A stretch of DNA of 64,000 bases, taken from the IMG/VR virus record IMGVR_UViG_3300020048_000104, positions 1 through 64,000 of that record; one strand, given 5' to 3'. This document shows, one piece after another, positions 24,664-42,185 of this stretch (its first letter is position 1; every line of letters begins with the position of its first letter). Below the pieces are notes generated by a model that was given only the letters and a program-made list of their open reading frames with translations, had not been told where the DNA came from and ran no database searches. The position numbers and the translations under genes are program-made. The stretch is from a virus. Taxonomy: Duplodnaviria > Caudoviricetes.

Positions 24664-27600
24664 ATGTTACAGCCGAAAAAGTCTACGTTTTTACAAGATC
24701 TTAAAAAACATGAAGATCAATTAATAAAAGATGGTAAAATAGATGATCCTAAAGTTCTCGAAGAACAATTAGGAGGTATTCCTGAAAGAGTATCATCTAT
24801 AGATGTGTTATATCCTAATAAATCACCTGAAGAATTTGAGAATTTTGAAGAATATATGCCTACTCAAACAGTACGTAGTGGTCAATATTCAACAGAACAG
24901 TTATCTAATATACGTGCTGAGAATCAATCTAATTGGGAACAAGCTGGTAATGCATCTGCTAGATTTGCATTAAATATTGTTCCTTCTATTGTATCAGGAT
25001 TCGCATCTATGTTAGATATTCCTGGTTACTTTGATGCTGAACATGCTGCAACTAATGATCTAGTAAATACAGTAGAAGAATGGAAACAACAAGTAAATCA
25101 AGAAATAGCTCCTATTTATTTAGAAAATCCTGATACTCCTATGGACCTTGGGGATTTTGCATGGTGGATGGATCGTGGAGAAGGACTAGCAGAATCAGTA
25201 GCTTCTTTTTTAGTACAAGGTGCTGCTATGGGTGCTGGAGTTGGTGCTTTAGTAAAAGGTGCTAATGCATTCAATAATGCTTCTAAATTAGCTAAATTAG
25301 TAGGAGCAAGTGCTAAAACACAAAGTAAAGTAGGTACTGTCGCAAATATATTTGTTGAAAAAGCAGGTACATTAACTAATGCTATTGCTTTAAATCAATC
25401 AGAAGCTGTATTAGAAGCAACAAGTGTATATAACGATACTAAAACTTATTGGCTTGATAAAGGTTACTCTATGGAGGATGCTAAGAAACAAGCAGCTATA
25501 GGAGCATCTACAACAATGAATATGAATAGAGCTAACATTCTATTAAATATTACATCTGCTTACATGTTCATGACACCAATGAAACTAGCTAGGAAATTAG
25601 TAGATCCTGTTAGTAGAGCTAATACACTTAAATCATTAGTTGCTGAAGGTTCTCAAGAAGCATTAGAAGAACTTATCAATCACTCAGCATCACAAGCAGG
25701 TAAAGCTCATGGTAAAGGTGAGGAGTATGGTTTTAATGATGCTATTAAAGATATGAAATCAGCTGAAGGTATTGAAGCTGCTTTATTAGGTGCTTTTGGA
25801 GGTATTGCTCAAACAGGTGGTAGTATTGCTTTTAAACATTCTAAATATGGTACTGGTTCTGCTGTAAATAAAGAAACAGGTGAAAGAGAATCAGCTTATA
25901 CTCAACAAACTAACAGATACGAAAAACAACAAAAAGTAATAGAAGATTTAAAAGCATCTGGTGTTAAGAGTTTTGATGTATTGAATAATCTTGCTTATAC
26001 AATGAAGTTAGGTCAAGATATGGCTGATGCTCAAAATAATAATGATATAGATAAGTACAATCAGTTACAAGCTGAATTATTCGAAACAAAAGCATTAACA
26101 GCATTCCAATCAGGTACTACTCAAATATTAGAAGACTTGATTAGGTCTTCTGCTGGAGAAGATGGTGAAACAGGAATATCAAAAGAGCAAGTTAACGAAG
26201 CTATTTCTAATTTGAGAGAGTTAGAAGCTGTGTATAACAACTATGAGAATTTTGAAAATGTTGATGATTTATTTTTCAACAGAGCTAATAAAATTCGTAC
26301 AGAAAGAATATTACGTTCTCAAAAAGCAAATCAGATAGAAACTAAAATGAATCTTCAAGCAACTGCTGAACAAATTGCTAAGAAGTATAAATTCAAAGTA
26401 GATAAAGAAGTAGTATATAAAAAAGAAGGTGTTCAGACAGGTACTGAAACACTTACTACAGAACAACCTATTACATTTTCATTGGAAAACTTAGGAGATA
26501 ATCCTGGTACTACAGAGGATAATAGAAAAGTGTACGATGCTTTCGTAGAAGAATTATCTAATACAGAAGTATATAAGAATGCTCAAGAACAAGATCTTAC
26601 TGTAGAAGAAACAGAAAACTTATTAAACGGTTTAAATGAGAAATTCGTATCACTTAAATCTAAAGAAGGTCAAGAAAAAGCTAAAGTTGAGAAAGCTGAA
26701 AAAGCAATTGAGTCAGAAAGAATGTCTAAAATATTACGTGATGATTTCGAAGATTTGGATGAATTACGTAAAATGGCTGCTGAAACAAAAGATGATAATG
26801 TTAGACGTAAGGCTGAAAAGAAAATAAAGACTATTGAAACAAATCGTGCTATTGAAGCTCAACAGAAAAAAGACGATACTGTATTCAATAAGTATAGTAC
26901 AGCTATTGCCAAAACAGATAGTAGTCCTGAAGGTAAAGCTGAGTTTGAAAAATTAAAAGCAGAGATAGCAAAATTGAAAAACTTATCTCCTGCTTTAAAA
27001 CAAAGATTAGCTGATTCTATTGATGCTCGTCAAAGAAACATGGATGCAGGTATGATGTCAGATGAAAAGGTTACTAAACCAAATCCTTCTGATGAAAATA
27101 CCGTAGACTTATCTGAATTGATAACAAATTCTAAATTACCAGAAGATTTTGTAACAGATGATGTTGAAGAAAACATAGAAGCTGAAATAGCAGATGCTGT
27201 TAAAGAAGTATATGAAAAAGACCGTAAACCTCAACTTAATGAAAAAGGTGACTTAGAATACGACTTTGATCGTTCTGAACAAGGACATGATAAAGGTGCA
27301 TTCTTAGCAAGAGATTTTGTACAAAACGAATTTAGTGGTAAAGTTACTAGAGAAGATATAGACAATGAACTTAATGAAGTAAATCCAGATATATTAAATC
27401 CTGATACGTTAAATGAAGGTACTAAAATTACTATTAAGGTAGATGATGATTATGATGGTGATGTTTATGTAGGTGACACTAAAGAAAAAATGCCTTGGTC
27501 TGAAAGGAAAAAGCAAATAGGTAATAATCCTGATACCATGCGTGATGAAATACCAATGGTTGTTGTTGACAATACTGGTAAGAAATTATTTCATATACAC

Positions 27601-30600
27601 GATGTTAACTGGATTAATGAAACTAATGTATATGGTGATATAGAATCCGATAGAGATGCATTAAGAGCTATTAGAGATAAAGTATTAGCTAGTGGAACAA
27701 GTGGTGTAGAAACATCTATTACAAGTAAATCAGCAGGTATATTATTTACTACAGCTAAAGGAGAATCTGTATTATTAAAAGATGGTATGCCTGATCCTAA
27801 TTTACAATTAGTAGTAGGTAAAGATAATGCATTTACTGATAATTCTGTAGATAGAGAATCACTACTTAATAAGAAAATCAGAGATGGTCAATTGTATGCT
27901 ATTATTCCTGTTGGTAAAGAGAAGATAGCTATTCCTTTACAGCGTACTCAGTTGAAAAACAATCCTGAAATATACAATACTATTGTTAAAGCTATAGAAG
28001 CATATTTAGATCCTGAGAATAATCAGGAATTTATAGAAGGTGTAGCTAAAGTAGGATCTAAATTAGATGTTTCTGATTTATCCAATTTATCTAAATTCAT
28101 ATCCCAATTTGTATATTTATATCCTTTGGAAAAAAATGAATCTTTAGTTGATGTAGTATCTCGTTCTTCTGAAAAATTCAATAGACAAAATTCAATAATA
28201 TCAATTACTGGTAACTCTATAGAATTTTGTAAACCAGGTATTAGTAATTCATGGGGAAGTATATCAACAAACACACCTGCTAATATGCTTCCTGCTTTAT
28301 TGAAAAGACTTAAATATGTATTGAGTGATGTTAAGACACATGCTAAAAAAGATAAAAATACAGGTAAAGTAATAACTACAGATGTTGCTGTTGTTAATGC
28401 TGAAGGACAAGTAGTATCTAAACCATATAGAGAATTTATTGGTGAAAACTTTAAATCTAATGTGTTATCTACAAAGATAAATACTAAAGATGGTGTTAAA
28501 TATGTATATAGTATTCAACAGAATATTACATTTGATACAAGTTTTGCTCCTGTTCAAAAGAAACCTGTTATTGCTACAACTACTCAATCTACAAATACTC
28601 AAGAAGCTGATGTAGAATCAGAAATTGTTGATAATGCTTTAAAACAACAATTAGATAATGATGTTAAACAAGTAGTTGAAGATACACAAACATATCCTAC
28701 TGAAAAATTAATTAATGATTTAGCTGATTTGAAAGCAGGTAACTTAAAAACATTTGGTGAATCTGCTGAAGATGCACCAGATCAAAAAGAAGTTAATTAT
28801 ACGATATACATATTTGAAAACGCACTTAGAATACGTAAAGAAGCTAATAACACAACTGATTTATCACAATTAATTAATAATGATAGAAAGATTACTCTGG
28901 ACTCAGATGATGTTTCTAATGATGATGATACGGATTTCCAATTAATTCCTGAAACAAATGTTAAAAATGCTGTTAACGATGCTATTTCTGAAATGACTGT
29001 TAAAGGTATTAGTCTTCGTCAACAAAATTCATTAATAGGATATATAGGTTCTAAAATAATTAAAGCAAGTATAGATAAATTACAAGAAACAGGAAAGTCT
29101 AAAGTTTCTATTAATGACATATTTGATGAGGTAGAAAATGATTTAAAGAAAGATTATCAGACATACGTAGATAACATACTTCCTAATAAAGCAGGTAGAG
29201 TTAAAGCAATTCTTGATGACTTTGCTAAAGTTAAACAGTTAACTATTGCTAAAATAGAGTTAATGAACACTGGTACATTAACTTTAAAAGAGAATAACGA
29301 TGCTGCTGAAATAGAATCTGATGATATTACAACATCTGTTTTATCTGATGAGGAAATGGATATGTCAGATGAAGCATCTGGAGGATTAGAAAATGTATTA
29401 CATAGTGACGATTGGACTTTTACACTTGATTCTAAATCAACAGCTTCTGCTAATTTGAAAAAGTTTTTAACTTTTGTAGAAGACAAAGAAGACGGATTGA
29501 CTAAGTTTAATGAATTAGGATTTCCTGAAATTATAGAGTTTGATGTTGTTTATAATACGTTACATGAATTACTAGCAGGATTACCTGCTAACTATGATAA
29601 AATGTTAGCTACGTTAGAAGCACATACAAATAAATTCCCATGGTTACAAACAGTAATAGAACGACTAGATGATGCTCCAGATCAAATAAGAAATGAATTT
29701 GTTTCTGATATGGCTAAACATGCTATTACAATGAAGTTTATTCTTTGGAATAAATTACAAAACGGTAAATATGTATTGTTTACTAAAGATGCCAATTCTG
29801 CATCTACTCAAAAAAGATTACTTACAACATGGAATTATAATATTACAGATGGTAATAATCCTTATTCTATTTTAAAAGTAGATGATAGTGGTACTTATGT
29901 GTACGATAGAACTAAAATAGAACCTTTAGTAGCATTAGCAAAGGAATGGGAGAACGCAACAGTAGATAATCTTCCTACTAATGATGAGTTGTTAAAATGG
30001 CTAAATGCTTTTGGTATTACTGTTAGTGAAGAAACACTTAATGAATTAAGATTAGGTAAATTTAAAAATAAAGGAACATTAACTTTCCAAAGATTGTTTA
30101 CTGCTCATAACGGATTGGTAAAAGTATTAGCAACACAGATTGACAAGTATTCTGAGAAAACTAAATTTGATGATACTAAAATAATAAATGATACTGTTAT
30201 TCAATCACTTGCTACAATGGAAGCAAGTAATGCAGAAAACATATTCAGTAACTCATTTAACGCAGGAGGTAAAACAATTTACACATTTAGTAATAACAAG
30301 TATGTAATTAACAGATTCCGTGATTTAAAAGAAGATGCTCAATTACGTGCTGATTTAGAGAATGTTCCTTTTATAAAAGGTAGTTTGTGGTTGAATGAAT
30401 TAAATAATAATCCTGCTTTCAATGAGCATTTTGGAATAGACTATTTATCATTAGAAGCAATTAAAAAAGAATTTACTCCTTCTAAAGATAATCGTAAATT
30501 GAATAATTTAACAGAAGACGAGCATGAGGTTATTAAATTAGCTATGTTCTTTAATAATTACAATAATAGACAAGTGTCATTTTTCTATCCTACTATGTCA

Positions 30601-32328
30601 GATAAGACTACAATGATGGTAGTTAATGCTTTAGCTAGAAAGATAGAAGTAAATGATGATTTTGAATTAGCTGATGACAAAGTTGTTGAATTATATGATG
30701 CTATAGTTATGCCTGAAATACAACGTATGCTATCAGAAAAGTCTGATAACATTGCAGGATATAAACCAAACTTCTTCTATTTTATTCCTTCTTTAAATGA
30801 AGTCACTGTTACTATCAATGGTAAAGAAAAAACAATAGTAGAGCATGTATTAAGTTCTAATGGTGAAATTACAGATGATTTAAGAAATATTATTCTTGAA
30901 GAATTGAAAACAACTTTTCAACAATTAACAGAAGATAAAATTGATGAGTGGGTAGAATTAGGTGTAGGTGTTAATAATGCGTTCTTAAACAGTCCTTACA
31001 TGGATAACGTAGCAGAAGGATTGACTAAACCTAAAGCTGATGATAAAGTAAGTCAGAAAGTAAGATACGCAGCTACTGACTATGTATTTAATTATTTAAT
31101 AGCAAATGCAGAGATGTTCAAAGTATCTATTGGAGATCCTGCTTTATACGCAAAATTTAAAGATGGTAACACTGTTAAGCAAAATCTGGAATCGACTTTT
31201 GGAAATATTGGAAAAAGATTGGCAGGAGATATAGCTCCTGGTATTGAATTAGCTGATTCTGAAAAGAACGAGTATTATCAAATATTTATGAATGATACAA
31301 CAACACAAAGTAAAGCGTATCTTAATGAAATATTTGATAAAGTATCTGAAAACACTAAAAAAGAATATAGTAAAATTAAAGGTTCTGATGCTCAAGAGTA
31401 CACTACTTGGCAAGAGCATTTATATGTATTGAATAAATTAGGTAGAATATCTAAAAAGCAACATACTGATTTTAGTGATAAATTACGAAAAGGAGAAGAG
31501 TTAGATTTCAATGAGTTGAATCTTGTACTACAACCTATGAAGCCTGTTTACGTAGGAAATAGATTAGAGAAATTAGCTGATCGTAGAATCTATATCAAGT
31601 CATCTTCTTTTCCTTTGATTCCTCAACTTACAAAAGGATTACAAATTGATAAGTTGCGTGTACAAATGGAACAGTTTGAAAGAAGTAAAAACAGTACAGT
31701 TCGAGCATCTTTCAATACTGCTAATAAAGTAGGTAGTGTTGTACAAGCATTAGATGTATTTGATACTAATGGTAACGTATTAGATGTTAACATCACAGAT
31801 GCTAATGTATTGAAATTACAACGTAAGAACTTTAGGATTCAACAAGACGTACCTTATGACCATGAGAAATCAGCTGTTAACATAGGTACTCAGGAACGTA
31901 AATTGTTATTCAATAATATCCTTAGTATTTCTAATTTTGACTATAACGGTAAAAAGCTAACAGGTGCTGAACTAAAATCAAAGTATGATGATTTGTATAA
32001 AAAAATGTTTGAGCATAAGCGTACATTGTTAGAAAAGGAATTAGGATTACTTGAAGATGTATCTGAAGAAATTAATCCTAAAGACTTTTTATCTATTCGA
32101 GAAAGTAGTACATTTACAGCATTGGAAGAAATGGAGAAAGCAAGTGAAGCTATCAAATCTCCTGTTGCTAAATCTAAACTTAAAAACGAATTACAAGATA
32201 AGATGGGTACTAAGCAATTTGCAAGAGCTCAATATGTTAATAAGAATTTTGATAAAATAATAGAGAAATTAATGAATGCTAAAGTAAATGTATTCTTTGA
32301 TGAAAACATAGATAAAAAATGTGAATAA
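24664..32328 (+). CDS. Giant virion protein; C-terminal region carries the N-terminal (beta-like) part of the virion RNA polymerase
   Basis: 2554 aa. N-terminal Gly/Ala hydrophobic helices and EGSQEALEE ejection-protein motif. C-terminal KRLAGDIAPG, DAQEY, LQPMKPVY, YIKSSSFPL, RIQQDVP and GTQERKL resemble crAss vRNAP blocks. Confidence 0.65.
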   Translation: MLQPKKSTFLQDLKKHEDQLIKDGKIDDPKVLEEQLGGIPERVSSIDVLYPNKSPEEFENFEEYMPTQTVRSGQYSTEQLSNIRAENQSNWEQAGNASARFALNIVPSIVSGFASMLDIPGYFDAEHAATNDLVNTVEEWKQQVNQEIAPIYLENPDTPMDLGDFAWWMDRGEGLAESVASFLVQGAAMGAGVGALVKGANAFNNASKLAKLVGASAKTQSKVGTVANIFVEKAGTLTNAIALNQSEAVLEATSVYNDTKTYWLDKGYSMEDAKKQAAIGASTTMNMNRANILLNITSAYMFMTPMKLARKLVDPVSRANTLKSLVAEGSQEALEELINHSASQAGKAHGKGEEYGFNDAIKDMKSAEGIEAALLGAFGGIAQTGGSIAFKHSKYGTGSAVNKETGERESAYTQQTNRYEKQQKVIEDLKASGVKSFDVLNNLAYTMKLGQDMADAQNNNDIDKYNQLQAELFETKALTAFQSGTTQILEDLIRSSAGEDGETGISKEQVNEAISNLRELEAVYNNYENFENVDDLFFNRANKIRTERILRSQKANQIETKMNLQATAEQIAKKYKFKVDKEVVYKKEGVQTGTETLTTEQPITFSLENLGDNPGTTEDNRKVYDAFVEELSNTEVYKNAQEQDLTVEETENLLNGLNEKFVSLKSKEGQEKAKVEKAEKAIESERMSKILRDDFEDLDELRKMAAETKDDNVRRKAEKKIKTIETNRAIEAQQKKDDTVFNKYSTAIAKTDSSPEGKAEFEKLKAEIAKLKNLSPALKQRLADSIDARQRNMDAGMMSDEKVTKPNPSDENTVDLSELITNSKLPEDFVTDDVEENIEAEIADAVKEVYEKDRKPQLNEKGDLEYDFDRSEQGHDKGAFLARDFVQNEFSGKVTREDIDNELNEVNPDILNPDTLNEGTKITIKVDDDYDGDVYVGDTKEKMPWSERKKQIGNNPDTMRDEIPMVVVDNTGKKLFHIHDVNWINETNVYGDIESDRDALRAIRDKVLASGTSGVETSITSKSAGILFTTAKGESVLLKDGMPDPNLQLVVGKDNAFTDNSVDRESLLNKKIRDGQLYAIIPVGKEKIAIPLQRTQLKNNPEIYNTIVKAIEAYLDPENNQEFIEGVAKVGSKLDVSDLSNLSKFISQFVYLYPLEKNESLVDVVSRSSEKFNRQNSIISITGNSIEFCKPGISNSWGSISTNTPANMLPALLKRLKYVLSDVKTHAKKDKNTGKVITTDVAVVNAEGQVVSKPYREFIGENFKSNVLSTKINTKDGVKYVYSIQQNITFDTSFAPVQKKPVIATTTQSTNTQEADVESEIVDNALKQQLDNDVKQVVEDTQTYPTEKLINDLADLKAGNLKTFGESAEDAPDQKEVNYTIYIFENALRIRKEANNTTDLSQLINNDRKITLDSDDVSNDDDTDFQLIPETNVKNAVNDAISEMTVKGISLRQQNSLIGYIGSKIIKASIDKLQETGKSKVSINDIFDEVENDLKKDYQTYVDNILPNKAGRVKAILDDFAKVKQLTIAKIELMNTGTLTLKENNDAAEIESDDITTSVLSDEEMDMSDEASGGLENVLHSDDWTFTLDSKSTASANLKKFLTFVEDKEDGLTKFNELGFPEIIEFDVVYNTLHELLAGLPANYDKMLATLEAHTNKFPWLQTVIERLDDAPDQIRNEFVSDMAKHAITMKFILWNKLQNGKYVLFTKDANSASTQKRLLTTWNYNITDGNNPYSILKVDDSGTYVYDRTKIEPLVALAKEWENATVDNLPTNDELLKWLNAFGITVSEETLNELRLGKFKNKGTLTFQRLFTAHNGLVKVLATQIDKYSEKTKFDDTKIINDTVIQSLATMEASNAENIFSNSFNAGGKTIYTFSNNKYVINRFRDLKEDAQLRADLENVPFIKGSLWLNELNNNPAFNEHFGIDYLSLEAIKKEFTPSKDNRKLNNLTEDEHEVIKLAMFFNNYNNRQVSFFYPTMSDKTTMMVVNALARKIEVNDDFELADDKVVELYDAIVMPEIQRMLSEKSDNIAGYKPNFFYFIPSLNEVTVTINGKEKTIVEHVLSSNGEITDDLRNIILEELKTTFQQLTEDKIDEWVELGVGVNNAFLNSPYMDNVAEGLTKPKADDKVSQKVRYAATDYVFNYLIANAEMFKVSIGDPALYAKFKDGNTVKQNLESTFGNIGKRLAGDIAPGIELADSEKNEYYQIFMNDTTTQSKAYLNEIFDKVSENTKKEYSKIKGSDAQEYTTWQEHLYVLNKLGRISKKQHTDFSDKLRKGEELDFNELNLVLQPMKPVYVGNRLEKLADRRIYIKSSSFPLIPQLTKGLQIDKLRVQMEQFERSKNSTVRASFNTANKVGSVVQALDVFDTNGNVLDVNITDANVLKLQRKNFRIQQDVPYDHEKSAVNIGTQERKLLFNNILSISNFDYNGKKLTGAELKSKYDDLYKKMFEHKRTLLEKELGLLEDVSEEINPKDFLSIRESSTFTALEEMEKASEAIKSPVAKSKLKNELQDKMGTKQFARAQYVNKNFDKIIEKLMNAKVNVFFDENIDKKCE

Positions 32329-32801
32329 TGGAAAAATTATTAAATGAAGTAGAGATCAAAACATTGAATAAGTTTGGTCAGTTTGAATTAACAGCAAGTC
32401 AGACATATTTATTTTTAGCTAACAGAATGAAAACATTATCTTGTTTTGGAGCTGAAAAATTATTTAATGGTGAGTCAGATGGTGAAAGAGATCATTATAG
32501 AAAAATAGAAAAATTCATGAATAATTTAGGATGTGAACTTTCTGTTGAAGCATTAGATAAAGCAGAACATGATATTTCTAATATCAAAGAAGCGTTAGAA
32601 CTAGCTTATGTAATGGAAAAAGATTTACTAGATGCTTATGAAACAGCTGCTAGAAATTCAGAATTATCTTTAAAAGTTGTACTTTTGTTACAAAAATTTA
32701 CAACACATCAGGTATCTGCTGTAGGTGAATTTAGTGACTTGTTAGCACGAATAGAACTTACTAATGATATGTTATTGTTTGATAAAGAGTTAGGTAACTA
32801 A
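32328..32801 (+). CDS. Ferritin-like protein
   Basis: Four-helix pattern. E20, Y27, E53, H56, E97 and Q128 align with E. coli FtnA E17, Y24, E50, H53, E94 and Q127. Ends with the ferritin-type DKEL. Confidence 0.85.
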   Translation: MEKLLNEVEIKTLNKFGQFELTASQTYLFLANRMKTLSCFGAEKLFNGESDGERDHYRKIEKFMNNLGCELSVEALDKAEHDISNIKEALELAYVMEKDLLDAYETAARNSELSLKVVLLLQKFTTHQVSAVGEFSDLLARIELTNDMLLFDKELGN

Positions 32802-32811
32802 ATAGTATAAT

Positions 32812-35800
32812 ATGGCTTGTGAATATTTTGTAAACGGTGAATGGATTTCTGAAAATCAATTTAAAGAAATTTTAATTGGTGATGAATCAGGAGGATTATT
32901 AGATGCTCTTATTAATTCAGGTAAAGTAGAAATGAAAGGATTTCCTACTGTCGATGCTCCTGTACGTGAAACATTAAGAAATAACACAATACCTGTACAA
33001 AAATTACAGGCTATGTTAATTAAAGAAGTGAAGAGTAGAAAAGGTTATCCTATTAATATTCTTTCTGCTCTTGAATTAAATAAGGAAGGTACTGATTTCA
33101 AAATACCACTATGGTCAAGTAACTATGCTGATAAATTTGAAAGTTTATTAACATCAATTGTCAATAACAATGTCATTAAGCAAAAGTTCAATGGACATTC
33201 ATATATCCTCGGATCTGAAGAAGGTTTTACTTTAAAAGAAGGTGACGATGCAGAAAATGAATTAAGTCGCTCAGGGATTGTCTATACTGATTCATTTGAT
33301 CCTAAAATAGGATTACAACCTATGCGAATAGGAGAAAATGGAGAAATATTACCTGCGCAGATTATGATTCCTTTTAATTTTAAAAACAAGGATCAATATG
33401 GTAATAAATTGAAATTGAAAGATTTTATGATTCCTGGTACTAACAAAATAGACTTATCTAAATTAGATCCTAAGATGTTAAAACTGTTTGGGTTCCGTAT
33501 TCCTACACAAGGACACAACTCAATGTCTACTGTAGAAATAGTAGGATTCCTACCAGAAGCATCAGGAGATTTAGTTTTAGCACCTAAAGATTTTACTGTT
33601 CAGATGGGATCGGATTTTGACGTTGATAAATTATACACGTATATGTATAATGTACAACTTAAAGAAGGTAAATTAACTACAGAGTTTTCTGAAGATAACA
33701 TAATTGAAAATGCACAAAACGCAATACTTGATATTCATCACTCAGTGCTTACTAATCCTGATAGTAATATAGTTAGTGCTATATTAAAACCTGATGGGTT
33801 TGGAGATTTTAAAGATTTATCATCTGATGTTGTAGATAATAGGACAACAGCAGGAACATTAAAACAAACATTGACTATCTTATCTGATTCGTATCAAAAA
33901 AAGAAATTTATATCAGGTACAGCAGGTAAAGACGGATGTTTAGGTTATGGTACAAAAGTATTAATGTATGATGGTAGATTTAAAGAAGTTCAAGATGTCA
34001 TAGTAGGAGATCAATTAATGGGTATAGATAGTACACCTAGAAATGTAACATCTTTAAAAAGAGGGGTTGAACAAATGTACATAGTTCAGCAAAAAAGAGG
34101 TATTAATTATCGTGTAAACGAATCTCATATATTGTCATTGAAAGAACATATTCCTGCTTTATACAGTAAACCAGTAATCAATAATGTTAGAGTTATTGAT
34201 AAATCTAAACTATTGAGAGAAAAACAAATTATAACTAATAACATAAAAGTAAGTGATTATTTATTAGCAAATAATGATTTTAAACGTAGAACAAAAGGTT
34301 ATAAAAATACAAGTATTGAATTTCCTGATACTGATACTCCTATATCTCCTTATTATTTAGGACTGTGGTTAGGTGATGGTGTTACTAAAGACATAAAAGA
34401 AATAGCAACTATTGATGAACTTATAGAAAATTATTTAGCTCTTACATTTGGTATTAGTAGTGTGTATGGACCAAATAACATATCTAAACGAGTATTTGAT
34501 AATGGTTTAAATGATAATTTTAAAAAAATATTTAATGTATCTAAGTGTGGTTTGTTACCAGGTTGTAAACATATACCTGATAGTTATTTATATACATCAA
34601 AAGAAAACAGATTATCTTTATTAGCAGGTTTAATTGATAGTGATGGTCATTATTGTAAAATAAATAAACAATATACATTTTCAAATATTAATGAGAAACT
34701 AATAAATCAAGTTGCTTTTCTTACAAGAAGTCTTGGTTTTTATACAGCTATTTATAGAAAAGAAGCTCAAATTTCAAAAAGAGGATTGAATGAGCAAGTA
34801 TCTTTTAAAGTTAATTTTGTAGCAACTTATGATATACCTGTATTATTAGAAAGAAAAAAACAACTCTCTAATTCAGTATTCAAAAACAGATTATATACAG
34901 GAATTACTTTGAAAAAAGATGTTGTGGATAATTATTACGGATTTACTTTAGATGGGGATCATTTATTTATGTTAGAAGATTTTACAGTAACTCACAATAC
35001 TGGATCATTCTCATTAGATGCTACTTTTAATGCTATTATTCAAGGTAAGGATTTATTCTTTTTTAAACCTGAAACAGTAGGTTTAGATAAGTTTGGTAAG
35101 TATTCAAGAGATGAACAAATAGCAATGACTAGAGATACTTTTACATTAGGTAATTTATCATCTGATGGAGATTTGTCTAATCCTTATAATTTAAAATCTC
35201 AAAAGATACTTAATTCTGTAAATGGAGATATTAATAAATTATCAAAAGAACAAAGAGCTAAATTGAAATTCAAATCGGATGTGATACAAGGATTACAATC
35301 ATCTGCTGTGGATAATGCTAATGAGGAAATATTAGATAAAATTAATATTACTTCTCAAACATTTGATGCTATTCGTGGAATGGCTCAATTAGGATTTGAA
35401 GAATCTGAAATCGTAGGATTGATGACTCAAGATATTATGTGGGAATATGTTGATTTTGTTAAATCAAGAAAATCATCATTAAAAGAAGAATTTGCATCTG
35501 GAGATTCTTATGAAGATTTCTTATCTATAAAGAAAAAACAATATGATCCTAATGGTGATTTTGATAAATTAACACAAGAACAAATCAATACATTAAGTTC
35601 TAAGTCAGGTACTCAATTAATTGATGTCCTTATCAGTAAGCAGTTAGTAGATGTAAAAGAAGGTAGTAGTACACCATTGTCTAATTTAGAACAATTTGCT
35701 ATACTTGATAAATTCATAAAATTTAGTGAAGTAGGTAAAGCTATTAAAACAGTACAGTCTACTATCAATACTGAATCATCAGGACTTCCTAAAAACTTAT

Positions 35801-38019
35801 TAGAAACTAATGCTAAGATAGAACAAATTAAAAGACTTCCTTTAAGTCCTATTGTTGGAGCTACTAAGCTATTAGGAGAGTTTGATAATAATAATAATTT
35901 AGTTAATCCTACTACTATAAATGGATTTGCTGCTTATCACGGTGCTATATTAGCAGATAAGATGTATGCTAAATATTTCCCATATACTACAAATGGATTC
36001 ACTACTCAATACAATGAGTTATTAGAACATATCGCAGGAGAAGAAGTATCTGATTCTAAACGAGTAGATATTAAAATCAATGCGTTTAAAGAAATGCGTT
36101 CTTATTTATTTACAAGTGGTGCTTTAAATATTTACGATGGTAATGCTGAAGGTGTTCAAAGAAGACTATTTATTGATATTCCTGGTGAACATCAATCACT
36201 ATCATCTATACTAAAAACCATAAAAGGACAAAATAAACAATGGTTTAATAACAATCAGTTTTTGAATAAGTTATTGTTTGAGCCTAGAGTTGATGGTAAA
36301 GTATCAAGAGTTGATTTCCAAGCAGCGACTGGAGAAAACTATGATGAACAAGCTATTTATTTAGGATTCATGCAGTTGTTTCAATTAGACACACAAGTAT
36401 TAGATACTAAATTTAATGGAGAAGATTATACACCTGCTAGACTAGCACACGAATTGGTAATGTATGCTTACTTAGAAGGAGGTTCTCAAGGATCTAAATC
36501 ATTCATGAAATACATTCCTATTGAGTATTTAAAAAGTCAACGATTTGGAGAAGGATTACAATCATTAAGTAGTTTTGACTACAATTCTATTTTTGGAGGT
36601 TCTGGAGTAGTAGCGAAGTATGTCAATCCTTCTCGTTTTACAGTACAATATTTTCAAAACAATCCTAATAATGCTAAGAAATTAACATTAGAAGATATAG
36701 ATACCAATCATAAAAGCATTACAGCAGTTGATAATTTCAAATTAAAACCTGATGCTATTGCTGGTAATATGGTATCGTACACGAATGAATTAGGTGAGAA
36801 AACAAATACTCAAACAGGGTTTGTTGCTATATATGATTCTAAATTAAAAAGTAAATACGCATTGTATCAATATGATAATGTGGAACATGTATATAAACGT
36901 ATTCCTGTTGTATCAGGTGCTTATGGATTTAAGCAATATAACATCAACGGTGATATTACAAAACCTGTACAAACAGCAAATGAGATAGTTGCACCAAATA
37001 CAATAAATGTAAAACAACCATCAACACCATCTATGAATCCTGTTCCTGTACAACCTGTACAAGGCTACAATCCTAACATAGTGAATAATAATAATCCTAT
37101 TGAGAAAGTAGGAGGTTTAGAGATCAATCGTAAATTAGGTAGTGATGCAGAAATAATAACAGACTTCTTTTTACAGATTGCTAATAATCCTGCTGTTCCT
37201 AAGTATTATCAGGAATTAGCAAAGGAGTATTATAAATTAAAATTACCTCATGGTATTAAATTACAAGGAACAGATAAAGGAAAAGGATCTTATAATGCTG
37301 GTACTAATGTTTTAAAATTAAATAAAGAAGAGTTAAACGTAGAAGGTGCCTTAGAAACAGCTATTACTATATTGCATGAATCTACTCATATTTTTACAAG
37401 TGCTGTAATAAAGAATTATGGTAATTTAAAAGGAGAACAGAAAGAAGCTGTTACACGTTTGAACGGTTTGATGAATAAGTATATAGCTTTTCTTAATAAA
37501 TCTGGTAAAGGACCTCAAAGAGAAGCATTTAGACAAGCATATAATGATTGGAAGAATGCAAAAGAATCAGGTGATAATACAATGATTCCTAGTCCTGAGT
37601 TTACAAAAGATAATCTAAATGAGTTTTATGGTTCTATTAAATTAGAAGAGTTTGTAGCTATGGCACAAACATCTAAAGAGTTCCAGCAAATACTTAATAA
37701 TGTAATAGATTCTGATGGTAAATCATTCCTTAGTAAAATGATGGAGCAAATAGGAAAGATTCTAAAATCAATAGGTATAAACCTTAATAAAAATTCATTA
37801 CTGTATAGTACATTAGAAGGTGTTCAAAACTTAATTGATGTGAATCAGAAGAATGTAGAATCGTCTACAGAAACAGAACCTGCTCAGCAACTTACTGATT
37901 TAGTAAAACCAAAATTTAATCCTTTTGATGGAAGAAATCTTAATCCTAATGATTTGATTGATGAACAATTGTTACCTTTACAGGAAGATTTAGAAGAATT
38001 TAAACGAATGTGTAAATAA
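32812..38019 (+). CDS. Virion RNA polymerase catalytic (beta'-like) part with intein and C-terminal zincin-like domain
   Basis: GFRIPTQGHNSM and catalytic GSDFDVDKLY (DFDVD at 33613-33627), an intein at 33937-34998, and HESTH...EEFVA near the C-terminus. Confidence 0.85.
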   Translation: MACEYFVNGEWISENQFKEILIGDESGGLLDALINSGKVEMKGFPTVDAPVRETLRNNTIPVQKLQAMLIKEVKSRKGYPINILSALELNKEGTDFKIPLWSSNYADKFESLLTSIVNNNVIKQKFNGHSYILGSEEGFTLKEGDDAENELSRSGIVYTDSFDPKIGLQPMRIGENGEILPAQIMIPFNFKNKDQYGNKLKLKDFMIPGTNKIDLSKLDPKMLKLFGFRIPTQGHNSMSTVEIVGFLPEASGDLVLAPKDFTVQMGSDFDVDKLYTYMYNVQLKEGKLTTEFSEDNIIENAQNAILDIHHSVLTNPDSNIVSAILKPDGFGDFKDLSSDVVDNRTTAGTLKQTLTILSDSYQKKKFISGTAGKDGCLGYGTKVLMYDGRFKEVQDVIVGDQLMGIDSTPRNVTSLKRGVEQMYIVQQKRGINYRVNESHILSLKEHIPALYSKPVINNVRVIDKSKLLREKQIITNNIKVSDYLLANNDFKRRTKGYKNTSIEFPDTDTPISPYYLGLWLGDGVTKDIKEIATIDELIENYLALTFGISSVYGPNNISKRVFDNGLNDNFKKIFNVSKCGLLPGCKHIPDSYLYTSKENRLSLLAGLIDSDGHYCKINKQYTFSNINEKLINQVAFLTRSLGFYTAIYRKEAQISKRGLNEQVSFKVNFVATYDIPVLLERKKQLSNSVFKNRLYTGITLKKDVVDNYYGFTLDGDHLFMLEDFTVTHNTGSFSLDATFNAIIQGKDLFFFKPETVGLDKFGKYSRDEQIAMTRDTFTLGNLSSDGDLSNPYNLKSQKILNSVNGDINKLSKEQRAKLKFKSDVIQGLQSSAVDNANEEILDKINITSQTFDAIRGMAQLGFEESEIVGLMTQDIMWEYVDFVKSRKSSLKEEFASGDSYEDFLSIKKKQYDPNGDFDKLTQEQINTLSSKSGTQLIDVLISKQLVDVKEGSSTPLSNLEQFAILDKFIKFSEVGKAIKTVQSTINTESSGLPKNLLETNAKIEQIKRLPLSPIVGATKLLGEFDNNNNLVNPTTINGFAAYHGAILADKMYAKYFPYTTNGFTTQYNELLEHIAGEEVSDSKRVDIKINAFKEMRSYLFTSGALNIYDGNAEGVQRRLFIDIPGEHQSLSSILKTIKGQNKQWFNNNQFLNKLLFEPRVDGKVSRVDFQAATGENYDEQAIYLGFMQLFQLDTQVLDTKFNGEDYTPARLAHELVMYAYLEGGSQGSKSFMKYIPIEYLKSQRFGEGLQSLSSFDYNSIFGGSGVVAKYVNPSRFTVQYFQNNPNNAKKLTLEDIDTNHKSITAVDNFKLKPDAIAGNMVSYTNELGEKTNTQTGFVAIYDSKLKSKYALYQYDNVEHVYKRIPVVSGAYGFKQYNINGDITKPVQTANEIVAPNTINVKQPSTPSMNPVPVQPVQGYNPNIVNNNNPIEKVGGLEINRKLGSDAEIITDFFLQIANNPAVPKYYQELAKEYYKLKLPHGIKLQGTDKGKGSYNAGTNVLKLNKEELNVEGALETAITILHESTHIFTSAVIKNYGNLKGEQKEAVTRLNGLMNKYIAFLNKSGKGPQREAFRQAYNDWKNAKESGDNTMIPSPEFTKDNLNEFYGSIKLEEFVAMAQTSKEFQQILNNVIDSDGKSFLSKMMEQIGKILKSIGINLNKNSLLYSTLEGVQNLIDVNQKNVESSTETEPAQQLTDLVKPKFNPFDGRNLNPNDLIDEQLLPLQEDLEEFKRMCK
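33937..34998 (+). mobile_element. Intein with LAGLIDADG homing endonuclease (354 aa) in vRNAP
   Basis: Begins G|CLGYGTKVLMYDG, contains YYLGLWLGDG and LLAGLIDSDG, ends YYGFTLDGDHLFMLEDFTVTHN|T. Confidence 0.93.
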
Positions 38020-38021
38020 TT

Positions 38022-41000
38022 ATGGCAAACAAAAACTGTCCTTTAGAAAGCAATACTGAGTGGGTTGAAATGAAACGTCAATTAGGGTATGATTTAGCTG
38101 CATATACTTATGTAAAAAGAAAATGGGAAGTACCTCAACTTACTAATGAAAAAGAATTATCTAAGCGAATAGGATTTACTAACAAAACAGTTAGTGAAAA
38201 CAAATATTACGAGTTAAGTATTAAACTAGGTGGTTTTAATGAATTACGTAAAAATGCTCATTTCTTAAAGACTGTTAAAAAGTATAGTAAGAATGGTAGA
38301 ATGGTTCGTGATGTAGAATTACAGATGAATTATTTATCTATTGCTGAAGAACAAGCTAGAAGAATGATGGCAGCAAACAATCCTATTTACGAAGTTCCTG
38401 CTGATATTGCTAGAAAAGAAGAAGAGAAAAAAGCAAAAAAAGAAACACCTTCTCAAGTAAATCCTGGGTATTATTTAAAACCAGGAGATAGTAACTATAC
38501 TGTTAGAAATGGTGAAGTTGTTAATTTAGCAGATGCTAAAACAATGGATGATGTAGATTATCTTATTCCTACTGCTAAAGATCCTATTAAAGATGCTGAG
38601 CAAGTACGTAAAAGAAAACTACAAAAAGAGATTGCTGTACTTACAACTAAAAGTAATAATGCAAAAGATTCTTTTGTGGTACGTTCTTTATTGACACAAA
38701 TAGAATCATTAAAAGCTATTTTAGAAAAAGCAGATGAGCGTATTGGAGCAACAGAAAATATAGAAAAATATGATAATGTATTACAATTTGCAGATTCTCA
38801 ATTAAATGAAATAGAAGGAATATTAAGTGATGATGCAATATCTTCTGAGAATATTTTATACATAGAACGTATATTAAACTTATGGGAGAAAGCAAGTAAT
38901 TTTAAAGGAGATCCTTCTGAGCATATTATTTTAGATGAGTTTGAATTTCAATCAGATGAAATAAAAAAACTATTTAGAAATATAGGAGCACGAGTAGAAG
39001 ATTATCAAAGTAGATTAGGTGTTATACGTGAAGAACACGTGGTAGCTTTCATGCGTGAATATTCTAATAATAAAACTCTTACTAAAGAAGAAATATTTGC
39101 TGATTTTGCAGATAGTGGTACAATGAGTGCTTTGACATTGAATCTAGGTAGATTGGATGATCCTATTTTAAAAGTAATATTTTCAGCTGTTGAAGAAATG
39201 CATGTTAACGCTAGATTTGAAATCAATGAAGTATTCAAAGATATTGATTTAGTAACAAGTAAAGCATTACCTAAATTAAAAAGATTATCAGGTAATAAAA
39301 ATCCTTGGAGATTCTATGAACAAGTAACTAAAGATGGTTTGGGTACAGGTAAAATAGTACATAGATTTTCAGACGATTTCTTTAAGACAATTAAGGATTT
39401 GCGATACAAGGCATTTTATATGACTGATAAAAAAGGTAAATCTACTTCTAAAGCATCTGATGTGGAAAGATACTATAAGTGGTTGGAGGAAAACACTATT
39501 ACTTTTGATGCTCGTAAATTATTTGATGATAGTCATTATGATGAAGTTGAATTTGATGATAAGTATTTATTTACTAATCAAAAATATTCAGATGCTGAAA
39601 AACAAGCACATATTAATCAACTTAAAGCACAATTAGGAGAAAAAGGATATACTCAATATTTTGAATCAATTAGTAAGAAAATAGAATTATTTAAACGTGA
39701 TAGAGCTGTTGCGTGGGGTAGCATTGTTAATGATTCTACTTTATCAAAAGAACAACAGGATGCTTTATTTACTGAATGGAATATAGAAAATTCACCTTTT
39801 TGGAGTTCTGAATTAATAGAAAATCCTACAATGCGTAAAAAGCCAGGAGGTAAAGGATTTTATAAAATTGATAGTTCTCGTAAATACACAGAACAAATAC
39901 CATTAAGAACTACTAAATCTGGTAAAACTACTAAATGGTATGATGGAAATTTTGAAAAAATTGAAGCAGATGAAGATCTATTAGCATATTATAATGTAAT
40001 GTTGAATACATTAAAAGATATGAGATCTTTACTTCCTGCTAACAAACGTGACTCAATGGGTATTACAGACATTCCTAAAATGAAACAGTCATTAGCTGAT
40101 ATGTTTGGAGAAAAAGGAATGAGGATGGGTGTTAAACCTTTTTGGGAAAGACTTCAAGAAATGTCTAAAACTACTGATTTAGCTAATACTACAACAGCAG
40201 ATATAGATCCTCTTACTGGAGAACGTATAAATGAACAATCTTTAAGATACATTGAAGATACTACTGAAAAAGTAAATTCTATAGTACAAACTAAAATAAT
40301 TCAACACAAGCAAAATACAGGAACTGTTCCTTCATCAGCATTGATACAAAAGTTTAAAGATGAGGCTAGAAATGAAGTATCACAAGAATACTCATTTGAT
40401 TTGACTAAACTGCTAAAAGCATATTCTACAATGGCATTAGAATATAAACATAAGTCTTTAATAGAACCTCAAATAAAAATGCTAGAAAAAGCATTTAAAA
40501 GTAAAAAAGAAATAATTACTAATAACTCAAGCAAACCTGTTGTTAAAATCAATAGTGACGGTACTGAAACAATACAAAGTAAAGAAGGATTAGCAAATGC
40601 TAAAAGTGCATTGGAGTTCTATTTAGATACTAAGATGTGGGGAACAGGAGGTCGTAAAGTAGAAGGTGTGAGTAAAAAGAAAACTTATACTATTTCTGAA
40701 AAGAAAAAGAAAGCTGATTTAGAAGCGTTGTATGAAGCTACTTCTGATAGTAAAGAACAAGAACATTTACAATCAGAAATAGATAAACTAGGAGGATTTA
40801 CATCAGCTTCTGGTGTTGGTGATATGTTATTAAAATTAATGACTTATAAAGGGTTAGCTTATAACTTAGGTTCTGCTTTTAGTAACGTTGGTTTTGGTAT
40901 TATTTCTAACTTGAATGAAGCATCTGATGGTAGAAACTATAATATGGCTCAAATGCGACATGCTTATTTACTTACTACTAACTCAATAGGTAAAAATTTA

Positions 41001-42185
41001 TCAGGAAATAAATGGGATGGTGCTGGTAAAAACGCATTAAAAATTCGTACACTTATGGATAAGTACGATTTACTTAAAACATCAGATCAAGAAATATACG
41101 ATTTAAGTACAAAATCTACACTGACTAAAAACTTAGGTAGATTCGGACCAATGAGTTTACAACAATCATCAGAGTATTTGAATTATGCTCCTGTTATGGT
41201 AGCTATGATGATGAACGCTAAAGCTACAGATCCTGATGGTAAAGAAACTACTTTGTGGGATGCTATTGATGAGAATGGTGAGTTAAGAGAAGGTTATTCT
41301 GATGCTGGTTTAAATGAATCACGATTTGTACTTAAAGTAAAACGTGTAATTGAAATGAATCACGGTGATTATAATAATCAACAACAAGCAAAAGCAACTA
41401 TTACAGGTAGAATGTTATCTCAATTCCGTACTTGGATGTTTGAAGGATTTGCTAACAGATTTGAAAAACAAAAAGTAGATGATATACTGAGTTATAATAA
41501 TAAAGATATAGATACACCATTTCTTAGAAAAGGTAGATATAGAAGTTACACAGCAGGTCAGTTAGCTACAGCAGGTGCTACATTAGGTACTACTTTTATG
41601 CCTGGTATAGGTACTGTATTAGGAGGAGGAGCTGGGTTTTTAATTGGTAAATTTGCAGGAATGCAAACTGAGGAATCTGCTATAAATGATACTTTGTTTA
41701 CATTAAAACAGATGGCTAGAAAGCTAATGTTTAAACCTACTCAATTTCAGGATAGATTTAATGAAGTAGATGCTGCTAATATGCGTAAAAATATGACAGA
41801 GTTATATATGCTTATGACTATAGCAGGATTAGGTTTACTTATAGCTGCTGTAGGAGGAGGTGAAGATGATGATGAGCGTATGTCAAGATCAGCTAATTTC
41901 TTATTAAACCAAATGACAAGATTAGAAACAGATATAGCATTTTATACTAATCCTTTGGAATTTGAGAAGTTAACAAAAACAGCTGTACCTATGGCTCAAT
42001 TAGTAGATGATACTCGTAAATGGTTTGTTGATGTATTCAATTTATTTGATGGAGATCCTGAAAATGATGTGTTTAGATCAGGTATATTTAAAGATAAATC
42101 TAAATTGTTAGTACACACAGGAGAATTAATTCCTGGTATATCTACAGCTATTAAATTAGCTAGGTCTACTTCTCAAGTTTATTAA
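38022..42185 (+). CDS. Giant virion cargo protein with C-terminal membrane-type helices
   Basis: 1387 aa with glycine zipper GATLGTTFMPGIGTVLGGGAGFLIG and LYMLMTIAGLGLLIAAVGG. Last gene of the crAss cargo cluster. Confidence 0.6.
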   Translation: MANKNCPLESNTEWVEMKRQLGYDLAAYTYVKRKWEVPQLTNEKELSKRIGFTNKTVSENKYYELSIKLGGFNELRKNAHFLKTVKKYSKNGRMVRDVELQMNYLSIAEEQARRMMAANNPIYEVPADIARKEEEKKAKKETPSQVNPGYYLKPGDSNYTVRNGEVVNLADAKTMDDVDYLIPTAKDPIKDAEQVRKRKLQKEIAVLTTKSNNAKDSFVVRSLLTQIESLKAILEKADERIGATENIEKYDNVLQFADSQLNEIEGILSDDAISSENILYIERILNLWEKASNFKGDPSEHIILDEFEFQSDEIKKLFRNIGARVEDYQSRLGVIREEHVVAFMREYSNNKTLTKEEIFADFADSGTMSALTLNLGRLDDPILKVIFSAVEEMHVNARFEINEVFKDIDLVTSKALPKLKRLSGNKNPWRFYEQVTKDGLGTGKIVHRFSDDFFKTIKDLRYKAFYMTDKKGKSTSKASDVERYYKWLEENTITFDARKLFDDSHYDEVEFDDKYLFTNQKYSDAEKQAHINQLKAQLGEKGYTQYFESISKKIELFKRDRAVAWGSIVNDSTLSKEQQDALFTEWNIENSPFWSSELIENPTMRKKPGGKGFYKIDSSRKYTEQIPLRTTKSGKTTKWYDGNFEKIEADEDLLAYYNVMLNTLKDMRSLLPANKRDSMGITDIPKMKQSLADMFGEKGMRMGVKPFWERLQEMSKTTDLANTTTADIDPLTGERINEQSLRYIEDTTEKVNSIVQTKIIQHKQNTGTVPSSALIQKFKDEARNEVSQEYSFDLTKLLKAYSTMALEYKHKSLIEPQIKMLEKAFKSKKEIITNNSSKPVVKINSDGTETIQSKEGLANAKSALEFYLDTKMWGTGGRKVEGVSKKKTYTISEKKKKADLEALYEATSDSKEQEHLQSEIDKLGGFTSASGVGDMLLKLMTYKGLAYNLGSAFSNVGFGIISNLNEASDGRNYNMAQMRHAYLLTTNSIGKNLSGNKWDGAGKNALKIRTLMDKYDLLKTSDQEIYDLSTKSTLTKNLGRFGPMSLQQSSEYLNYAPVMVAMMMNAKATDPDGKETTLWDAIDENGELREGYSDAGLNESRFVLKVKRVIEMNHGDYNNQQQAKATITGRMLSQFRTWMFEGFANRFEKQKVDDILSYNNKDIDTPFLRKGRYRSYTAGQLATAGATLGTTFMPGIGTVLGGGAGFLIGKFAGMQTEESAINDTLFTLKQMARKLMFKPTQFQDRFNEVDAANMRKNMTELYMLMTIAGLGLLIAAVGGGEDDDERMSRSANFLLNQMTRLETDIAFYTNPLEFEKLTKTAVPMAQLVDDTRKWFVDVFNLFDGDPENDVFRSGIFKDKSKLLVHTGELIPGISTAIKLARSTSQVY

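What the first reader, a model, noticed from the sequence alone, without database searches (positions are those of the whole stretch)
31213..33630. Virion RNA polymerase apparently split across two giant genes with a ferritin gene inserted at the break
Blocks I recognise as N-proximal vRNAP motifs (KRLAGDIAPG, DAQEY, QPMKP, YIKSS, QQ..P, GTQERKL) lie at the end of the 2554 aa protein. The continuation (KLQAMLIKE...IPLW...FESLLTSIVNN...KQKFNG, RIPTQ, DFDVD) is in the next giant ORF. In phi14:2 gp66 both double-psi barrels are in one chain. Here each half seems to carry an extra 60-70 aa terminal segment, and a ferritin ORF fills the gap (TAATG overlap upstream, 10 nt downstream) with no intron signature. 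This implies a two-subunit ejected RNAP that must assemble after passing the tail, co-expressed with an iron-binding protein.
Basis: partly seen in the sequence, partly recalled or inferred. Interest (0 to 1): 0.8.

Follow-up and report, generated by a model that had tools for sequence, protein, structure and literature searches.

The report
Split crAss-like virion RNA polymerase, ferritin in gap
In a widespread clade of uncultured aquatic crAss-like phages, the normally single-chain virion RNA polymerase is encoded as two proteins cut exactly between its two catalytic barrels. A conserved ferritin gene sits in the cut, and the new chain ends carry the same terminal cysteines that mark every other boundary between the phage's ejected giant proteins.

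Summary
ORF 24664-32328 (2554 aa) ends with the first barrel (DPBB1) and the first half of the Connector, matching phi14:2 gp66 residues 957-1168. ORF 32812-38019 starts with the second half of the Connector and DPBB2 with DFDVD, matching gp66 1172-1500.

Between them lie a 92-aa helical tail, an intact ferritin gene (32328-32801) and a ~57-aa head. Unsplit relatives have only a 4-14-residue linker there.

It is not an artefact, intron or intein:
- Tail, ferritin and head are all under purifying selection.
- Rfam finds no intron and there are no Hint motifs.
- The arrangement recurs in 16 of 16 related loci examined, and about 115 clusters of C-halves and 104 of ferritins exist.

Most relatives (65 of 80 in IMG/VR, and phi14:2 and the FpV phages) are unsplit. 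Split forms are not one clade on the flanking polymerase sequence (AU p = 4e-6), so the cassette was gained or lost more than once.

The new ends read ...KKC(E)* and MAC.... The same terminal-cysteine signature marks every boundary between these otherwise almost Cys-free giant proteins in phi14:2, crAss001 and the FpV phages. Fully fused polyproteins have no Cys. I infer that the halves are tethered end to end, probably by a disulfide. The ferritin's role is open.

The scan had already noted the terminal cysteines and the ferritin on this same stretch.

The parts
24664..32328 (+). N-half gene (2554 aa): a phi14:2 gp078-like region fused to the N-terminal part of the virion RNAP
31372..32049 (+). 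DPBB1 plus first half of the Connector (P0001 aa 2237-2462 = gp66 957-1168)
   Evidence: AF2 pLDDT 87; 6vr4_A Z 15.9; Foldseek E 8.6e-9
32050..32325 (+). Tail: a 92-aa clade-specific C-terminal extension. It is a helical bundle followed by a disordered ...NVFFDENIDKKCE end. Cys2553 is at 32320-32322.
   Evidence: Absent from unsplit relatives. dN/dS 0.15-0.47. Model. 13 of 13 IMG/VR split loci end ...C[DEN]?*.
32328..32801 (+). Ferritin gene (157 aa), start overlapping the N-half stop (TAATG)
   Evidence: Pfam PF00210. PDB ferritins E 2e-10. E20, Y27, E53, H56, E97 and Q128 are invariant in 104 homologues. dN/dS 0.04-0.13.
32802..32811 (+). 10-nt A/T-rich spacer before the C-half start codon
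32812..32985 (+). Head: ~57-aa clade-specific N-terminal extension starting MACEYFVNGEW. It has a beta-hairpin (aa 4-13), helices (14-22 and 29-35) and then a flexible linker. Cys3 is at 32818-32820.
   Evidence: dN/dS 0.06-0.44
32983..33792 (+). Second half of the Connector plus DPBB2 (P0003 aa 58-327 = gp66 1172-1500). The catalytic DFDVD is at 33613-33627.
   Evidence: 6vr4_A Z 14.8, then Rpb1-type DPBBs at Z ~7.5. Foldseek E 2.6e-11. D268, D270 and D272 are invariant.
33937..34998 (+). PI-SceI-type intein (aa 376-729) inside the C-half. It holds all four internal Cys of the precursor.
   Evidence: The intein-less allele P0110 reads ...KDG|VGSF....
32812..38019 (+). C-half gene (1735 aa, 1381 aa after splicing), with an HESTH zincin-like motif at aa 1522 and the penultimate Cys1734 (38011-38013)
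38022..42185 (+). Third giant protein (1387 aa). Its only Cys is residue 6 (38037-38039), the partner side of the next canonical boundary.

Best explanation
This is a genuine 'gene in pieces'.

Shown:
- In this clade the crAss-type single-chain two-barrel virion RNA polymerase is made as two polypeptides, cut in the middle of the Connector domain.
- The first chain carries DPBB1. The second carries DPBB2 with the DFDVD Mg-binding motif.
- The cut comes as one discrete cassette: a 92-aa helical tail, a separately translated ferritin gene with an intact H-type ferroxidase site, and a ~57-aa hairpin/helix head.
- All three parts are under purifying selection and always occur together.
- The cassette is present or absent as a unit among close relatives.
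- The new C-terminus ends in Cys and the new N-terminus begins M-A-C.

Inferred:
- The tail and head act as docking pieces. The disordered ...FFDE..KKC end may pair with the head hairpin, so that the active site re-forms at the barrel interface, much as beta and beta' do in cellular RNAPs.
- The two terminal cysteines tether the chains covalently, most likely by a disulfide, as at every other boundary in the chain of ejected giant proteins. The split enzyme would then be packaged and threaded through the tail as if it were one chain.
- The ferritin is co-expressed by translational coupling and works in the infected cell. Whether it only rides in the gap or serves the junction is not resolved.
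For: Position of the break: with the domain limits.

Cassette absent from unsplit relatives, which have a 4-14-residue linker there.

Recurrence:
- L003 and L004.
- Five ferritin contexts, all giant-ferritin-giant.
- 13 more IMG/VR loci in which split, ferritin, tail and head co-occur perfectly, against 65 continuous ORFs.
- 104 ferritin clusters and about 115 split C-halves starting M[AS]C.

Coding constraint: dN/dS is 0.04-0.47 for all three parts.

No intron. No Hint hit in tail or head. The frame relation of the halves varies between loci.

Crassvirus cargo synteny: muzzle, cargo protein 1 and ring protein 2.

Terminal-Cys rule:
- phi14:2 gp078 has its only Cys as the last residue. gp66 has only Cys3 and Cys2179. 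gp076 has only Cys3.
- FPSV-S29 (4419 aa) has only Cys4418. crAss001 gp47, gp50 and gp49 show the same pattern.
- 115 of 119 C-halves have an N-terminal Cys and 114 of 119 a C-terminal Cys, and most have exactly 2 Cys.
- 68 of 71 stand-alone third proteins have an N-terminal Cys, and 48 have a single Cys. Fused polyproteins of 5801 and 6334 aa have none.
- Elsewhere in the window Cys makes up 0.96% of residues. The five consecutive virion and cargo proteins hold 5 Cys in about 7290 residues.

Inter-subunit disulfides are documented in the crAss001 virion (PMC10172136).
Against: - No experiment shows two polypeptides, a disulfide, or activity.
- The tail's last 15 residues are low-confidence when folded alone.
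- Phage proteins are made in a reducing cytoplasm, so a disulfide would have to form late or outside the cell.
- A single Cys on each side cannot build a classical metal site.
- P0001 has one further internal Cys (1189).
- The tail and head have no detectable relatives, so their origin is unknown.
Confidence: 0.75

Rival explanations
1. The gap is removed at the RNA level (a group I/II intron carrying a ferritin ORF) or at the protein level (a split or degenerate intein), so one chain is restored.
For: crAss-like phages are rich in introns and inteins (PMC7886860). The same gene carries a real intein 1 kb downstream. The sizes (92 aa + ORF + 57 aa) recall 'fractured genes', in which a free-standing ORF sits between split-intein halves.
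Against: - Rfam gives no intron match in 31500-33500.
- The tail and head are conserved as protein, with dN/dS well below 1.
- The tail is helical, not a Hint fold, and does not begin with Cys, Ser or Thr.
- No conserved (H)N plus C/S/T at the head's end across relatives.
- No Hint hit even at E <= 10.
Confidence: 0.04
2. The ferritin is a passenger (a moron or auxiliary metabolic gene) that landed in a tolerant loop of the Connector. The halves simply reassociate non-covalently, and the terminal cysteines have another role or none at this junction.
For: - Free-standing genes splitting phage genes are known (my own knowledge: T4-like nrdA/mobE and split gp43).
- The cassette is dispensable. 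Unsplit L013 is the window's closest relative on both flanks.
- Another crAss-like contig carries an unrelated ferritin-like gene elsewhere.
Against: - Split and ferritin co-occur without exception.
- The cassette includes about 150 aa of conserved, selected docking-like sequence that a simple passenger insertion does not explain.
- Both terminal Cys are conserved in about 115 sequences, while Cys is otherwise purged.
Confidence: 0.17
3. Pseudogene or assembly artefact: a broken polymerase gene in one metagenomic contig.
For: The record is an incomplete linear IMG/VR contig (55% complete).
Against: The same architecture appears in many independent samples and collections at 47-97% identity, with intact ORFs and purifying selection.
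Confidence: 0.01

Closest known systems
phi14:2 gp66 virion RNA polymerase (PDB 6VR4) and the QDE-1-type single-chain two-barrel RNAPs
   Same: Both barrels, the Connector halves and the DFDxD motif align (Z 15.9 and 14.8). The gene sits in the same crassvirus cargo block, after the muzzle and cargo protein 1.
   Different: gp66 is one 2180-aa chain. Here the chain is cut at gp66 1168/1172, and the N-part is fused to the upstream gp078-like protein. A tail, a ferritin gene and a head are added at the cut.
Cellular multisubunit RNAPs (beta/beta', Rpb2/Rpb1) and jumbo-phage split RNAPs (phiKZ, AR9)
   Same: One barrel per polypeptide, with the active site formed at the interface. DPBB2 matches Rpb1-type barrels (Z ~7.5, rmsd ~2.8 A over ~100 residues).
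   Different: The split is independent and recent, inside a lineage whose ancestors and close kin are single-chain. There are no accessory subunits. Terminal Cys residues sit at the cut.
Genes in pieces made by a free-standing ORF (my own knowledge: Aeromonas phage Aeh1 nrdA split by mobE; split gp43 of T4-like phages)
   Same: A conserved enzyme gene is interrupted by an independently translated ORF, and both pieces are kept and presumably reassemble.
   Different: The inserted ORF is a ferritin, not a homing endonuclease. About 150 aa of new terminal sequence comes with it.
Fractured genes with split inteins
   Same: The layout is N-piece, free-standing ORF, C-piece, with extensions of intein-like size.
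   Different: No Hint fold, no splicing residues and no Hint HMM hit.

Membership tests
crAss-like virion RNAP (gp66 type) | Two double-psi beta-barrels homologous to those of gp66 | tested here: met
   6vr4_A Z 15.9 (957-1168) and Z 14.8 (1172-1500). BLASTP E 2e-18 and 3e-21. The barrels lie on two ORFs.
crAss-like virion RNAP (gp66 type) | DFDxD catalytic motif in DPBB2 | tested here: met
   DFDVD at P0003 aa 268-272. The three Asp are invariant in 66 sequences.
crAss-like virion RNAP (gp66 type) | Both barrels and the Connector in one polypeptide | tested here: not met
   A stop codon, a 474-nt ferritin gene and a new start codon lie inside the Connector.
crAss-like virion RNAP (gp66 type) | Packaged in the virion and ejected; transcribes early genes | not testable with these tools
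   Only synteny with crassvirus muzzle and cargo genes is available.
Ferritin (PF00210) | Pfam model above the gathering score | tested here: met
   47.2 bits against a cutoff of 24.5.
Ferritin (PF00210) | H-type ferroxidase ligands (human H-chain E27, Y34, E62, H65, E107, Q141) | tested here: met
   The equivalents E20, Y27, E53, H56, E97 and Q128 align to PDB ferritins and are 100% conserved in 104 homologues.
Ferritin (PF00210) | 24-mer cage that stores iron | not testable with these tools
   Not modelled.
Split intein / fractured gene | N-piece starts with Cys/Ser and has a Hint fold; C-piece ends (H)N followed by C/S/T | tested here: not met
   The tail is helical and starts L-E-D. The end of the head is not conserved.
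Split intein / fractured gene | Hint/intein HMM match in the extensions | tested here: inconclusive
   No Hint family at E <= 10 for tail or head. The absence of a hit is weak evidence.
Group I/II intron | Covariance-model match, and flanks that are not constrained as protein | tested here: not met
   The only Rfam match is a chance snoRNA hit at E 0.85. The flanks have dN/dS 0.06-0.47.
Gene split by a free-standing homing endonuclease | The inserted ORF is a homing endonuclease | tested here: not met
   The inserted ORF is a ferritin with no nuclease domain.

The most novel reading that the evidence does not exclude
The giant ejected proteins of crassviruses are concatenated head to tail through their terminal cysteines into one thread for passage through the tail. 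Gene boundaries can therefore move freely: wherever evolution cuts the chain, a Cys pair replaces the peptide bond. The Connector split is the clearest natural test of this, because it cuts an enzyme between its two catalytic barrels. In the strongest form, the ferritin lodged at this junction supplies the oxidant (a ferroxidase by-product) or the metal that closes the bridge in the cytoplasm.
Probability: 0.35. Interest if true: 0.9.

Novelty: new variant of a known kind. Interest (0 to 1): 0.7.

Why it matters
This is a natural, widespread and reversible experiment. It shows that a single-chain two-barrel RNA polymerase tolerates a cut exactly where cellular enzymes are divided into beta and beta'. 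That bears on how single-chain and multisubunit polymerases interconvert.

Split and unsplit forms exist at about 66-70% identity across the junction, which gives ready-made pairs for biochemistry.

The terminal-cysteine signature at the new ends links the split to a testable mechanism for how crassviruses package and eject more than 0.5 MDa of protein.

A conserved ferritin embedded in a virion-protein operon is unexplained. It has no match in the GenBank phage collection searched or in PHROGs.

Tried and rejected
- Tail and head as a duplicate of the canonical vRNAP/third-protein junction: BLAST scores were no better than the control pairings.
- Pfam at E <= 10 gave only a sub-threshold DnaB_N hit for the tail and nothing for the head. 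The ESM Atlas gave no usable hit for either.
- Search for a contiguous tail-head domain in longer proteins: six unsplit forms of 3792-4034 aa align only outside the tail and head.
- 8-nt direct repeat TGTGAATA at the two ends of the ferritin insert, read as a target-site duplication: only the Cys codon is shared in other loci.
- Read-through or ribosomal hop: the two halves are in the same frame in some loci and not in others, and the tail frame has about 30 stops across the ferritin region.
- Ferritin elsewhere in unsplit clade members: none in the held contigs, which are incomplete. A distant ferritin-like ORF in another contig is not at a Cys junction.
- A tree of DPBB2 alone did not reject one clade of split forms (AU p 0.118). 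Both flanks together did (p 4e-6).
- phmmer of P0001 against PDB found nothing.
Full report
**Anatomy**

The window is part of a 73-kb IMG/VR virus record. Its plus-strand block reads as follows:
- tail ring protein 2;
- muzzle protein (14593-18684);
- cargo protein 1 with a glucosaminidase domain (18687-21893);
- a 900-aa protein;
- ORFs of 2554 aa (24664-32328), 157 aa (32328-32801), 1735 aa (32812-38019) and 1387 aa (38022-42185).

This is the crassvirus cargo/transcription block described for crAss001 (PMC10172136). The 157-aa ORF starts on the stop of the first giant ORF (TAATG). It ends 10 nt before the next start codon.

**Where the break falls**

Four lines of evidence agree:
- BLASTP against phi14:2 gp66 (2180 aa; GenBank locus tag gp077) aligns P0001 2133-2461 with gp66 856-1167. 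It aligns P0003 60-300 with gp66 1174-1393, including DFDVD opposite DFDID.
- Against the contiguous 4419-aa protein of Flavobacterium phage FPSV-S29, the two ORFs abut at residues 3008 and 3014.
- PHROG 16227 places them at profile positions 2749-2990 and 2995-3244.
- AF2 models built on 66-67-sequence alignments reached mean pLDDT 87 and 86. They superpose on 6VR4 at Z 15.9 (model 8-233 = chain 957-1168) and Z 14.8 (model 58-327 = chain 1172-1500).

The second model then matches the Rpb1/beta'-type barrel of many RNAPs (Z ~7.5). The gp66 paper gives the Connector as residues 1095-1238, lying between the two barrels. The chain is therefore cut mid-Connector, with one barrel per ORF.

**What is added at the cut**

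Unsplit relatives (phi14:2, FPSV-S29, L005/L006, L013, L026) have only a 4-14-residue linker at this point. In L013, for example, it reads T-D-S-G-N.

The window, L003, L004 and others carry instead about 92 extra residues at the end of the first ORF, the ferritin gene, and about 57 extra residues at the start of the second ORF.

The tail folds as four or five helices followed by a low-confidence ...NVFFDENIDKKCE end. The head is a beta-hairpin plus two short helices, followed by a flexible linker. Neither has a detectable relative.

**It is real and translated**
- The same three-part layout is found in L003 and L004.
- It is found in all five contexts looked up for ferritin homologues at 58-69% identity.
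- It is found in 13 more IMG/VR loci.
- The protein databases hold 104 ferritin clusters of 58-96% identity. They also hold about 115 C-halves that begin M[AS]C.Y.V.
- Nei-Gojobori dN/dS is 0.15-0.47 for the tail, 0.04-0.13 for the ferritin and 0.06-0.44 for the head, similar to the flanks.
- Rfam finds no intron.
- There are no Hint motifs or hits.
- The two halves are in the same frame in some loci and not in others.

Splicing, read-through and artefact are therefore unlikely.

**Distribution**

Of the 80 best IMG/VR relatives of the DPBB2 region:
- 14 loci carry split, ferritin, tail and head together;
- 65 have an ORF open for at least the whole upstream flank, with none of the four;
- one has a different upstream boundary.

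No GenBank phage in the collection matched the ferritin. No listed GenBank match to the C-half reaches its first ~55 residues.

All split forms fall in one well-supported group that also contains unsplit L013, L026 and L027/L028. L013 is the window's nearest relative on both flanks, at 66% identity over 489 columns.

A tree of DPBB2 alone does not reject a single split clade (AU p 0.118). The two flanks together reject it (p 4e-6). The cassette has therefore been gained or lost as a clean unit more than once, by transfer, by precise loss, or by recombination between split and unsplit phages. Both states are evidently viable.

**The ferritin**

It passes the Pfam threshold and aligns to solved ferritins at E 2e-10. 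The six H-type ferroxidase residues are invariant in 104 homologues. It has no PHROG family. Its function in this place is not established.

**Terminal cysteines**

The new ends read ...KKC(E)* and MAC... in every split locus examined. The same signature marks the next boundary...FKRMCK* followed by MANKNC....

It also marks the canonical boundaries in other phages:
- phi14:2: ...NTIC* | MACK... and ...QECK* | MSCK...
- FPSV-S29: ...KNCN* | MACT...
- crAss001: gp47 ...RCNS*, gp50 MSKRC... and ...KICGANTLYEL*, gp49 MAKKC....

These cysteines are almost the only ones in these proteins:
- gp078 has one, gp66 two and gp076 one.
- The FPSV giant has one.
- Mature P0003 has two, because the other four lie in the intein.
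- Across databases, 115 of 119 C-halves have an N-terminal Cys and 114 of 119 a C-terminal Cys, usually the only two.
- 68 of 71 stand-alone third proteins start with a Cys, and 48 have no other. Fully fused polyproteins of 5801 and 6334 aa have none.
- Other ORFs of the window hold 0.96% Cys. The five cargo-block proteins hold 5 Cys in about 7290 residues.

So a Cys pair appears wherever the chain is cut and disappears where it is fused. I read this as an end-to-end tether, most simply a disulfide. Inter-subunit disulfides are seen in the crAss001 tail. This step is inference.

A first-stage note on this stretch (e1-5947271) flagged the same pattern. Another (e1-5947278) flagged the ferritin.

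**Comparison with what is known**

Variable boundaries, and even fusion of the three proteins, are mentioned in the gp66 paper. Fragmented RNAP genes are noted for Zeta-group crAss-like phages (PMC7886860). Full-text searches found no description of a clean inter-barrel split with a ferritin gene, or of the cysteine rule. The library is incomplete, so prior description cannot be excluded.

**Verdict**

This is a new variant of the crAss-type virion polymerase, and it comes with a testable mechanism for how the pieces stay together.

Noticed in passing
window 33937-34998: A PI-SceI/LAGLIDADG-type intein (354 aa) lies in the C-half, after ...GTAGKDG. A 97%-identical relative (P0110) lacks it and reads ...KDG|VGSF.... 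All four internal Cys of the precursor lie in the intein.
   Followed up: partly
window 38011-38039; L002 (phi14:2); L001 (FPSV-S29); L093 (crAss001): A terminal-Cys pair marks every boundary between the giant cargo-block proteins across crassviruses. These proteins are otherwise nearly Cys-free, and fully fused polyproteins have no Cys at all.
   Followed up: yes
P0110, P0114, P0117 and many other C-half homologues: Most C-halves in the clade carry a RecD/PIF1-like helicase domain (PF13604, PF13245, PF05970). In P0110 it is inserted near the C-terminus (aa ~1343-1813). The window's protein lacks it.
   Followed up: no
window 37375-37389: An HESTH zincin-like motif lies in the C-terminal part of the C-half. 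It aligns with HEVIH in FPSV-S29. Relatives give faint SprT-like hits.
   Followed up: no
L094 1414-1926 (-), contig IMGVR_UViG_3300049489_000842: An unsplit crAss-like relative carries a distant ferritin-like ORF (170 aa, 28% identity) between two large ORFs. It lies a few kb downstream of its polymerase and has no terminal-Cys junction.
   Followed up: partly
L011 1-9001: The N-half of one split relative (3018 aa) has a NUDIX domain hit, which the window's N-half lacks.
   Followed up: no
window 28228-28230 (P0001 Cys1189): This is the only internal Cys of the N-half. It lies roughly 100 residues upstream of where the phi14:2 gp078/gp66 boundary would map, and may be a relic or chance.
   Followed up: no
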